This document shows, piece after piece, positions 56,093 to 56,848 of a stretch of 64,000 nt of DNA. Numbering within the stretch: position 1 is the first letter of the stretch; each line of letters opens with the position of its first letter. Under the pieces are notes generated by a model. That model did not search any database. It was not told where the DNA came from and saw nothing but the letters and a program-made list of their open reading frames with translations. A program made the translations under genes and the position numbers. The stretch lies in assembly GCF_003019035.1 (NCBI RefSeq), contig NZ_CP027447.1; one strand, 5' to 3'. Source of the DNA: Escherichia coli (GTDB lineage Bacteria; Pseudomonadota; Gammaproteobacteria; Enterobacterales; Enterobacteriaceae).

Positions 56093-56848
56093 TGTCTATT
56101 CCTCAGTTAATGTCTACATGGCTATGTTTAACGTTATTACTGTTTGTCACTATAAAAAACCGCTCATTTGAGACAATTGCTGACATTAACTGTTTCACTT
56201 GCTACGCATGGACTTTTTAATTAAATTAGCACAAGAATGTTAAATTTAATAAACAAAAAGTTATTTCGCTGTATGATAAAAACCAACCGTTATGATTTAT
56301 TAGTGGAATTCGTTTTTCGAGTGTTATAAATTTATATCTAAATAGCGTTAATTAATGAGCAAAGCCAGACTCCTGTAACGCTCATAAGACTCATCTGCCT
56401 GCGACGGGTGGTCTGGTCAGTAGTAGATGTTTAAGGCGTGGCAGAGACATTTCATCCTTACTCTACGGCATTGGTCCACATACAAATCGTGGTTGTGACA
56501 CTTCACTTATCATCAGTGAGCGAACAGAGAATAGTTCAGTGATTTGAGTAATTAACCTGATTAAATGAAAAGGCATGATAAATGATAATACTCTGGCTTT
56601 ATCGTTAATTACTTAATTCCACATGTAAGCAATTTGCCCGCTTGGCATAGCGGGCATTTTTTCCAGGTACTTTTGAATGAGTACTGATGGATAAATACAT
56701 TGCAGTGGCGTGCCACGTACCAAAACACCAGCCCTCATTCGAAACCACCTACCGCACTGCTTCTTTAAAATGGCGTTAGTCGTGAAATATTGACCGCCAT
56801 CGAGTCCCCCTTGTAACCTTAACTCTTCCTGATACATGAATGATGATT

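What the first reader, a model, noticed from the sequence alone, without database searches (positions are those of the whole stretch)
56635..56662. Orphan plus-strand terminator hairpin in the non-coding region between the amber-split gene and tRNA-Ile
gcccgcttggcatagcgggc followed by attttttcc is a strong intrinsic terminator on the plus strand, yet no plus-strand gene is annotated upstream of it in the roughly 750-bp AT-rich spacer (56093-56848). This suggests an unannotated small RNA or short ORF ending here.
Basis: seen in the sequence. Interest (0 to 1): 0.25.

Follow-up and report, generated by a model that had tools for sequence, protein, structure and literature searches.

The report
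Conserved orphan terminator, candidate small RNA
The hairpin is a real plus-strand transcription terminator in the E. coli ypjCB–ileY spacer, and it ends a roughly 68-base stretch that is almost unchanged across E. coli and E. albertii and follows a promoter-like site, so it is probably an unannotated small RNA gene, although no transcript has been detected.

Summary
The window is E. coli chromosome. The spacer lies between the amber-split ypjCB pseudogene and ileY (tRNA-Ile2).

**What is there.** The hairpin TGCCCGCT/TGGCAT/AGCGGGCA plus T6 is at 56635-56662 (+), with a stem-loop energy of -15 kcal/mol. Sites this strict are expected 0.13 times per 64 kb in shuffles. No annotation or Rfam family covers it.

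**Evidence for a gene.**
- The hairpin ends a block (56595-56664) that is the best-conserved part of a hypervariable locus.
- 3065 of 3087 E. coli genomes carry one of two alleles that differ at a single base.
- E. albertii keeps the block with one loop change, although its left flank is ykgMO instead of ypjCB.
- Upstream lie invariant hexamers TTAAAT-17-GATAAT. Their spacer and discriminator vary freely, and perfect conservation starts at the predicted +1.
- No reading frame shows a coding signature.

**Best reading (about 0.5).** A self-contained plus-strand small RNA gene of about 68 nt, convergent with ileY.

**Evidence against.**
- K-12 Term-seq shows no plus-strand 3' end here.
- Two thirds of genomes, K-12 included, carry an uncompensated stem mismatch (-15.0 to -8.8 kcal/mol).
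- 43% of E. coli genomes lack the block.
- The -35 is weak, and there is no covariation.

**Verdict.** The small-RNA reading is partly supported; the short-ORF reading is not.

The parts
56635..56656 (+). Terminator stem-loop: 8 bp (56635-56642 paired with 56649-56656) and a 6-nt loop (56643-56648). Position 56652 is G here, giving a perfect stem. It is A in K-12-type genomes, giving a C.A mismatch with 56639.
   Evidence: Allele counts.
56657..56662 (+). T6 tract, the U-tail of the predicted RNA and its predicted 3' end.
   Evidence: Invariant in E. coli and E. albertii. One metagenome contig has T5.
56595..56662 (+). Predicted transcript of about 68 nt: GGCUUUAUCGUUAAUUACUUAAUUCCACAUGUAAGCAAUUUGCCCGCUUGGCAUAGCGGGCAUUUUUU.
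   Evidence: Perfect E. coli/E. albertii identity starts at 56595/6 and runs to 56664, apart from loop base 56643. There are no common polymorphisms in 77 E. coli sequences apart from 56652. The 5' end is inferred from the -10, not mapped.
56596..56630 (+). Predicted A/U-rich 5' stem-loop, a candidate seed region. The fold is weak.
   Evidence: RNAalifold consensus and single-sequence fold. The sequence is invariant, so there is no covariation.
56584..56589 (+). -10-like hexamer GATAAT.
   Evidence: Invariant in 9 genomes, 72 metagenome contigs and E. albertii. It lies 5 nt upstream of the point where perfect conservation begins.
56561..56566 (+). -35-like hexamer TTAAAT (TTACAT in E. albertii). 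It is weak, matching TTGACA at 3 of 6 positions.
   Evidence: Invariant in E. coli. The 17-nt spacing to the -10 is kept in E. albertii although only 7 of 17 spacer bases match.
56567..56583 (+). 17-nt promoter spacer. It holds five common polymorphic sites of the central region (56567, 56570, 56571, 56574, 56577).
56552..56579 (+). Second, overlapping promoter-like site. It reads TTAACC-16-CATGAT here (8 of 12) and TTAACC-16-TATAAT (10 of 12) in K-12-type strains. It is not conserved in E. albertii.
56547..56613 (.). 10-bp inverted repeat, AGTAATTAAC (56547-56556) and GTTAATTACT (56604-56613), bracketing the promoter-like region. E. albertii keeps it as GGTAATTAAC and GTTAATTACT.
56663..56745 (+). 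Conserved tract downstream of the terminator: nearly invariant in E. coli and about 85-90% identical to E. albertii. The part from 56700 to 56770 is C-rich and G-poor on the + strand (C 25, G 11), which resembles a Rho-utilisation (rut) site.
56849..56924 (-). ileY, tRNA-Ile2 with anticodon CAU. ARAGORN labels it Met. It is convergent with the predicted RNA.
54638..56092 (-). ypjCB pseudogene with an amber stop at 55736-55738. It forms the left boundary of the spacer.

Best explanation
The hairpin is the Rho-independent terminator of a small, self-contained non-coding RNA gene on the + strand, convergent with ileY.

Proposed anatomy:
- A sigma-70-type promoter, TTAAAT (56561-66), 17 nt, GATAAT (56584-89).
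- Transcription starting at the GG at 56595/6.
- About 40 nt of A/U-rich 5' sequence (a weak stem-loop and the likely pairing region).
- The 8-bp G+C-rich hairpin and a U6 tail ending near 56662. The whole RNA is about 68 nt.

What is shown:
- The terminator anatomy.
- The orphan status.
- Exceptional conservation of exactly this unit in two species with different left-hand neighbours.
- Conservation of the hexamers with a free spacer.
- Absence of a coding signature.

What is inferred:
- That the promoter fires.
- The position of the 5' end.
- That the RNA accumulates and acts, most likely as a trans-acting base-pairing regulator.
- That under laboratory conditions the gene is silent because the spacer is H-NS bound.

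A by-product of the terminator would be that + strand transcription cannot run antisense into ileY.
For: 1. The hairpin plus T6 is far beyond chance: 9 strict sites in the window against 0.13 in shuffles.
2. Across 9 diverse E. coli strains the locus is hypervariable (pi 0.05-0.17), but 56593-56742 has pi of 0-0.03, lower than ileY itself.
3. The 71-nt block is present in 3087 of 5426 complete genomes. 1040 carry exactly this allele and 2025 carry exactly the K-12 allele, which differs at one base. Seventy-two metagenome contigs show the same picture.
4. E. albertii has the block next to ileY, but ykgR-ykgM-ykgO lies on the left instead of ypjCB. Homology begins at about 56527. It is perfect over 56596-56664 except loop base 56643, then 85-90% to about 56745, and poor after that until the tRNA.
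5. The promoter signature fits. The hexamers match E. albertii at 11 of 12 positions at an exact 17-nt spacing. The spacer matches at 7 of 17 and the discriminator at 1 of 5, and the transcript is then essentially identical. Within E. coli, five common polymorphic sites of the central region fall in the spacer and none fall in the hexamers or in 56595-56651.
6. All six frames show more amino-acid-changing than synonymous codon differences.
7. RNA polymerase sigma-70 holoenzyme binds this spacer in genomic SELEX. The promoter those authors picked by eye overlaps the same bases on the other strand but lacks the A at position 2 of the -10 (sequence).
8. The block is single-copy, with no match in phage records; the only hits in the plasmid collection are three 4.8-4.9-Mb E. 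coli records, i.e. chromosome-sized.
Against: 1. K-12 Term-seq lists no + strand 3' end at about 2785575; only the ileY end at 2785762(-) and a Rho-dependent site at 2785734(-) appear. Nothing was found in the held supplements of the Hfq-CLASH, TRS, Cappable-seq, SMRT-Cappable-seq or TERMITe papers, although some of those files may be truncated.
2. Two thirds of genomes, K-12 and most O157 among them, carry G to A at 56652. This breaks a central G-C pair (-15.0 to -8.8 kcal/mol), and no genome has the compensating C to T change.
3. 43% of complete E. coli genomes lack the block, so it is dispensable.
4. The -35 matches at only 3 of 6 positions, and the tool's promoter scan does not call the site in this strain.
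5. There is no covariation, because the sequence does not vary.
6. Conservation continues about 80 nt past the terminator, which a 68-nt RNA does not explain.
7. No target stands out in the window.
Confidence: 0.5

Rival explanations
1. Insulating terminator only. The hairpin, backed by the C-rich tract behind it, exists to stop + strand transcription from running antisense through ileY. That transcription would arise from spurious or divergent promoters in the AT-rich, H-NS-bound island, or from ykgMO read-through in E. albertii. The terminated RNA itself has no function.
For: The terminator sits between convergent units in both species. The spacer is AT-rich, H-NS bound and RNA polymerase bound. 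A C-rich, G-poor tract follows the hairpin. ileY itself ends by Rho-dependent termination 28 nt downstream, so only the + strand needs an intrinsic stop here.
Against: It does not explain why the 40 nt upstream of the stem are more conserved than the stem itself, or why conservation starts at a predicted +1 behind conserved hexamers. In E. albertii, ykgO is followed by an inverted repeat of its own (AATGCTGG/CCAGCATT) inside the 119-nt segment shared with K-12; it is not followed by a T-run, and whether it terminates was not tested. 43% of E. coli genomes do without the hairpin.
Confidence: 0.2
2. Fossil. The hairpin is the surviving 3' end of a gene or operon that was lost when the ssrA-ileY island region was rearranged. 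Its conservation reflects shared recent ancestry or recombination tracts rather than function.
For: The region is a rearrangement hot spot: P2 remnants, IS1 insertions, integrase islands and different left flanks in different strains. The majority allele has a damaged stem with no compensation. No transcript has been detected.
Against: There is one substitution in 69 nt between species that differ by 10-35% in the adjoining non-coding DNA. The block is nearly invariant in more than 3000 genomes while neighbouring segments have pi up to 0.17. No frame upstream shows remnants of coding.
Confidence: 0.13
3. DNA-level element. The conserved block is a protein-binding or nucleoid-organising site, for example an H-NS nucleation site or the operator of an unknown regulator using the 10-bp inverted repeat. 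The hairpin is incidental.
For: H-NS and RNA polymerase bind the spacer. The inverted repeat AGTAATTAAC/GTTAATTACT is kept in E. albertii. TCGTTAATT resembles the reported high-affinity H-NS motif, but that resemblance is from memory and was not tested.
Against: A G+C-rich perfect stem immediately followed by T6 has no role in such a site and is very unlikely by chance. The conservation is continuous over 69 nt rather than confined to the repeat arms.
Confidence: 0.09
4. Minus-strand function. The block is part of a long ypjCB leader or an ileY trailer, or it encodes a small protein on the minus strand, where all three frames are open across it.
For: Genomic SELEX authors assigned a ypjC promoter (TTATCA-17/18-TTTAAT) here. 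Minus-strand ORFs of 39, 41/74 and 47 aa span the block, and gene callers sometimes predict them.
Against: E. albertii keeps the block without ypjCB. That promoter lacks the A at -11 and would transcribe away from the block. ileY transcripts stop 28 nt after the tRNA. Every frame shows more amino-acid-changing than synonymous differences, and start codons are not conserved. On the minus strand the hairpin has no U-tract.
Confidence: 0.06

Closest known systems
Canonical Rho-independent (intrinsic) terminators of E. coli
   Same: An 8-bp G+C-rich stem, a 6-nt loop and an immediately following run of 6 T; active in one direction only.
   Different: No gene is annotated upstream, and no 3' end has been mapped in K-12, where the stem carries a mismatch.
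Stand-alone intergenic enterobacterial sRNA genes (the class of roughly 50-250-nt Hfq-dependent base-pairing RNAs with their own promoter and an intrinsic terminator, such as RybB, MicA or RprA)
   Same: The size (about 68 nt), a predicted own promoter, an unstructured A/U-rich 5' part followed by a terminator with a U-tail, and sequence conservation highest in the transcript.
   Different: There is no match to any Rfam family; the best sub-threshold hits (RprA, Trp leader, AgvB) are terminator look-alikes of 12-22 bits against thresholds of 41-99. There is no evidence of expression, Hfq binding or a target. Its distribution is narrow (57% of E. coli genomes, plus E. albertii).
sRNAs of horizontally acquired, H-NS-silenced islands (for example the island- and prophage-encoded sRNAs described in EHEC and Salmonella)
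   Same: It lies in an AT-rich, H-NS-bound variable region next to a tRNA integration site, has a patchy strain distribution, and is silent under standard conditions.
   Different: It stays with the ileY backbone when the neighbouring island differs (E. albertii), and it has no match in phage or true plasmid records (the three 'plasmid' hits are chromosome-sized E. coli records).

Membership tests
Rho-independent terminator | G+C-rich stem of about 5-12 bp with a short loop | tested here: met
   8 perfect pairs, 6 of them G-C, with a 6-nt loop and an energy of -15.0 kcal/mol.
Rho-independent terminator | U-tract directly after the stem on the transcribed strand | tested here: met
   T6 at 56657-56662 on the + strand. 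The minus strand has AAATTGCTT instead.
Rho-independent terminator | RNA 3' end mapped at the U-tract in vivo | tested here: not met
   K-12 Term-seq tables list no + strand end near 2785575, and other held supplements are negative. Caveats: K-12 has the mismatch allele, and only standard conditions were sampled.
Stand-alone trans-acting sRNA gene | Own promoter giving a defined 5' end | tested here: inconclusive
   TTAAAT-17-GATAAT is conserved with a variable spacer, and conservation starts at the predicted +1. The -35 is weak, the site was not called by the scan in this strain, and no transcription start data were found.
Stand-alone trans-acting sRNA gene | Non-coding: no conserved ORF | tested here: met
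   In all six frames, amino-acid-changing codon differences outnumber synonymous ones between E. coli and E. albertii.
Stand-alone trans-acting sRNA gene | Sequence or structure conservation above the local background | tested here: met
   Covariation cannot be assessed because 0 of 21 pairs vary on both sides.
Stand-alone trans-acting sRNA gene | Detectable transcript, with chaperone (Hfq/ProQ) association and targets | tested here: not met
   There is no entry for ileY or ypjC in the Hfq-CLASH supplements, and the RIL-seq supplements are not held. No outstanding complementarity was found in the window. A genome-wide target search could not be done with these tools.
Any Rfam family | Score at or above the family gathering threshold | tested here: not met
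   Only tRNA passes. All other hits in 56520-56760 score 12-22 bits against thresholds of 41-99.
Type I toxin-antitoxin (small toxic peptide plus antisense RNA) | Conserved small hydrophobic ORF overlapped by the RNA | tested here: not met
   The minus-strand ORFs across the block are not hydrophobic, lack conserved starts and show no coding signature.
3'UTR-derived sRNA | Same-strand gene upstream whose mRNA ends at this terminator | tested here: not met
   E. coli has no + strand gene upstream. In E. albertii, ykgO ends 365 nt upstream. An inverted repeat without a T-run follows ykgO there, and 135 nt of unrelated DNA lie in between.

The most novel reading that the evidence does not exclude
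The block is an expressed, previously unrecognised regulatory RNA that is functionally tied to its constant neighbour ileY, the minor AUA-decoding tRNA-Ile2. It might sense or control convergent transcription or precursor processing of the tRNA. Alternatively, it might regulate AUA-rich, H-NS-silenced island genes in step with the tRNA that decodes them. The physical coupling to ileY is shown; the functional link is pure inference.
Probability: 0.08. Interest if true: 0.6.

Novelty: new member of a known kind. Interest (0 to 1): 0.4.

Why it matters
If the RNA is real, E. coli, K-12 included, carries one more conserved small RNA gene that annotation, Rfam and the transcriptome tables I could search have missed, probably because H-NS silences it and because K-12 has a weakened terminator allele. 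It would be a compact, testable case of an sRNA gene kept beside a rare-codon tRNA while the neighbouring island DNA turns over. The natural G/A stem polymorphism offers a ready-made pair of alleles for testing terminator strength and RNA stability. If it is not expressed, the locus is still a clear example of an ultraconserved non-coding block whose selective reason is unknown.

Tried and rejected
- **Rfam.** Searched at E up to 1 over 5 kb and E up to 10 over 241 nt. Only the tRNA passed.
- **Phage and plasmid BLAST.** No phage match. The three 'plasmid' hits are E. coli records of 4.8-4.9 Mb, i.e. chromosome-sized.
- **Paralogues within E. coli.** None found.
- **Other species through YpjCB.** The genome-contig scan gave a single E. 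coli-like contig inside a Planococcaceae MAG, probably contamination. The protein search gave only Escherichia and Shigella.
- **Spurious minus-strand ORF as a probe.** This route did work and found E. albertii.
- **Metagenome scan with a 25-mer of the block.** It returned 72 contigs carrying only the two E. coli alleles and the E. albertii type, in only two genomic contexts. No deeper lineage was found, so there is no covariation.
- **Compensated stem allele (56639 T with 56652 A).** Absent from 5426 genomes.
- **Expression evidence.**
  - K-12 Term-seq is negative.
  - The TRS, Cappable-seq, SMRT-Cappable-seq, Hfq-CLASH and TERMITe supplements have no entry.
  - Supplements for the RIL-seq paper and the 2022 NAR Term-seq paper are not held.
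  - The paper id tried for a K-12 dRNA-seq start-site study was not held.
- **Literature.** Searches for ileY or ypjC with sRNA terms, and for b2651, found nothing relevant.
- **Small-ORF reading.** Rejected on the ratio of amino-acid-changing to synonymous differences and on non-conserved start codons.
- **Bidirectional terminator or ileY terminator.** Rejected because the minus strand has no U-tract and ileY ends 28 nt downstream by Rho.
- **Terminator of ykgMO in E. albertii.** Rejected because it lies 365 nt away, past an inverted repeat that follows ykgO and a stretch of non-homologous DNA.
- **Local target search.** The best duplex, -21.7 kcal/mol, is no better than the best values for shuffled RNAs, which average -22.1.

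Full report
**Where we are.** The window is E. coli chromosome. It carries ssrA (39760-40122) and a tRNA with anticodon CAT at 56849-56924 on the minus strand. A 1-kb query around the finding is 100% identical to strain SCU-301. There RefSeq annotates, in order: ypjA, a recombinase remnant, a ypjCB pseudogene with an internal stop, tRNA-Ile, an amylase-like gene and glaH. K-12 MG1655 has the same layout, with ypjB/ypjC, ileY and ygaQ. So the 'amber-split gene' is ypjCB (54638-56092, minus strand, TAG at 55736-55738), and 'tRNA-Ile' is ileY, which ARAGORN labels Met because of the CAU anticodon. Neither record annotates anything in the 756-bp spacer.

**The observation.**
- The sequence is exactly as described. 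TGCCCGCT/TGGCAT/AGCGGGCA forms 8 perfect pairs, 6 of them G-C, followed directly by T6.
- The stem-loop alone folds at -15.0 kcal/mol.
- On the minus strand the stem is followed by AAAUUGCUU, so it is a one-way, plus-strand terminator.
- With a strict definition the window has 9 such sites, against 0.13 in dinucleotide shuffles. A chance occurrence in this spacer is therefore about 0.002.

**Conservation within E. coli.**
- The spacer is present in 3096 of 5426 complete genomes and is single-copy. It has no match in phage records, and its three hits in the plasmid collection are chromosome-sized E. coli records.
- In nine diverse strains the whole locus is unusually polymorphic, with pi of 0.05-0.17. 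The 5' end of ypjCB is included, and YpjCB proteins are only 79-96% identical within the species.
- Against that background, 56593-56742 has pi of 0-0.03, which is lower than ileY itself.
- A 71-nt query (56594-56664) finds 3087 genomes. Of these, 1040 match the window allele exactly and 2025 match the K-12 allele exactly. The two alleles differ only at 56652, G versus A.
- Seventy-two metagenome contigs give 31 G alleles, 39 A alleles and 2 of the E. albertii type.

**Conservation beyond E. coli.**
- YpjCB was useless as a handle, because it is found only in Escherichia and Shigella.
- A spurious minus-strand ORF across the block served as a probe and led to E. albertii.
- There the block again sits beside ileY, but the left neighbour is ykgR-ykgM-ykgO rather than ypjCB.
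- Homology to the E. coli ykgO downstream region ends 119 nt after ykgO. About 135 nt of unrelated DNA follow, and homology to the E. coli ileY spacer then starts at about window 56527.
- Identity between the species is perfect from 56596 to 56664 except for the first loop base, 56643 T to C. It is 85-90% up to about 56745 and poor from there to the tRNA.
- The unit therefore travels with ileY and does not depend on what lies to its left.

**What kind of unit it is.**
- Between the two species, all six reading frames across 56596-56748 show more amino-acid-changing than synonymous codon differences. Start codons of the minus-strand ORFs are not conserved either. The block is not protein-coding.
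- Upstream of the block the alignment has no indels, and the pattern is that of a promoter:
  - TTAAAT/TTACAT (56561-66) and GATAAT (56584-89) match at 11 of 12 positions, exactly 17 nt apart.
  - The spacer matches at 7 of 17 positions and the 5-nt discriminator at 1 of 5.
  - From the GG at 56595/6 onward the sequence is identical.
- Within 77 E. coli sequences, five common polymorphic sites fall in the spacer (56567, 56570, 56571, 56574, 56577). None fall in the hexamers, and none in 56595-56651.
- K-12-type strains have in addition TTAACC-16-TATAAT, which would start about 10 nt further upstream.
- Genomic SELEX shows RNA polymerase sigma-70 holoenzyme and H-NS binding in this spacer. The minus-strand promoter those authors proposed uses almost the same bases but has T or G where the key A of the -10 should be.
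- The predicted RNA is about 68 nt. It has a weak A/U-rich 5' stem-loop and the terminator.
- No Rfam family matches. Sub-threshold hits are terminator look-alikes.

**Evidence against.**
- Published K-12 Term-seq tables list only the ileY 3' end at 2785762(-) and a bicyclomycin-sensitive site at 2785734(-). They list nothing on the plus strand near 2785575. This also shows that ileY is terminated by Rho 28 nt downstream and does not use the hairpin.
- Other held supplements are negative or unavailable.
- The majority allele breaks a central G-C pair (-15.0 to -8.8 kcal/mol), and no genome carries the compensating change. E. albertii has G at this position, so A is the derived state.
- 43% of genomes have lost the block through island turnover, as in L003, L004 and L019.
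- The -35 is weak, there is no covariation, and conservation extends about 80 nt beyond the terminator. That extension includes a C-rich, G-poor tract which could be a Rho back-up.
- A local search for targets found nothing above shuffled controls.

**Verdict.**
- The hairpin is a genuine, non-random, orphan plus-strand terminator.
- Its most likely meaning (about 0.5) is the 3' end of a small, independently transcribed non-coding RNA gene that is conserved with ileY in E. coli and E. albertii and is silent, or nearly so, in K-12 under laboratory conditions.
- The rivals are a pure insulating terminator for ileY (0.2), a fossil 3' end (0.13), a DNA-level binding element (0.09) and minus-strand or peptide functions (0.06).
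- It is a new candidate member of a familiar class, not a new kind of system.
- Interest is moderate, because the conservation pattern is clean and even K-12 carries the block, but there is no expression evidence.

Noticed in passing
window 56849-56924 (-): ARAGORN calls this tRNA-Met (CAT). RefSeq annotates it as ileY, tRNA-Ile2, whose CAU anticodon is read as Ile after lysidine modification. The gene itself has 4 variable sites among nine E. coli strains, more than the neighbouring non-coding block.
   Followed up: partly
window 54638-56092 (-): ypjCB is amber-split here (TAG at 55736-55738) and split into ypjB and ypjC in K-12, but intact (449-492 aa) in many strains. Intact copies are only 79-96% identical within E. 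coli, and pi reaches 0.17 at the 5' end. It is a strikingly fast-evolving gene, found only in Escherichia and Shigella, with no known function (DUF5507/DUF5508).
   Followed up: partly
L014/L015 (E. albertii) 2770-4500; L016: In E. albertii the ileY flank is joined to ykgR-ykgM-ykgO, which lie at 0.31 Mb in K-12. The two K-12 positions are roughly equidistant from oriC (my inference from K-12 map positions, not tested), which fits an origin-symmetric inversion or a different ancestral order. L016 has a P4-type integrase island inserted in ileY, leaving a 3' fragment of the tRNA of about 45 nt beside the block.
   Followed up: partly
window 56705-56719 (-); palindrome 56707-56718: The minus strand reads TGGCACGCCACTGCA, resembling a sigma-54 -24/-12 element, but with GG-N9-GC, one base short of the canonical spacing. 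The same bases form the palindrome GTGGCGTGCCAC. The element is nearly invariant in E. coli; in E. albertii the palindrome arms differ at two positions (GTGGCATGCCAT).
   Followed up: no
window 56700-56770 (+): A C-rich, G-poor tract (C 25, G 11) lies directly behind the terminator on the + strand. It is rut-like and could act as a Rho-dependent back-up stop before ileY.
   Followed up: no
window 56547-56556 and 56604-56613: A perfect 10-bp inverted repeat, AGTAATTAAC and GTTAATTACT, brackets the promoter-like region. E. albertii keeps it with one change at the outermost position of the left arm (GGTAATTAAC), which would still allow a G-U pair at the RNA level. It could be an operator or part of a longer RNA stem.
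   Followed up: partly
window 56626-56631 (+): An AUG-UAA start-stop pair lies inside the predicted RNA, with no Shine-Dalgarno sequence upstream.
   Followed up: no
K-12 NC_000913.3 2785734 (-), equivalent to window about 56821: Published Term-seq with bicyclomycin shows a Rho-dependent 3' end 28 nt downstream of ileY. This explains why no intrinsic terminator follows the tRNA on its own strand.
   Followed up: yes
L003 (strain 20AR0354), L004 (strain 14EC007), L019: The ssrA-ileY interval is a turnover hot spot. P2-like remnants reach to 48 nt from ileY in L003. Two IS1 copies replace everything from the spacer to gabT in L004. In a metagenome contig (L019), unrelated DNA (origin not identified) replaces everything left of 56687.
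   Followed up: partly
window 343-370(-), 8412-8432(+), 15851-15870(-), 21178-21205(both), 21797-21816(+), 23191-23218(-), 38143-38163(both), 49103-49120(+): These are the other strict terminator-like hairpins in the window. Two of them qualify on both strands and are candidate bidirectional terminators.
   Followed up: no
L013 (DEQI01000374.1): A 2.8-kb contig filed under 'Planococcaceae bacterium UBA3370' is K-12-like E. coli ypjCB-ileY DNA, which is probably contamination of that MAG.
   Followed up: partly
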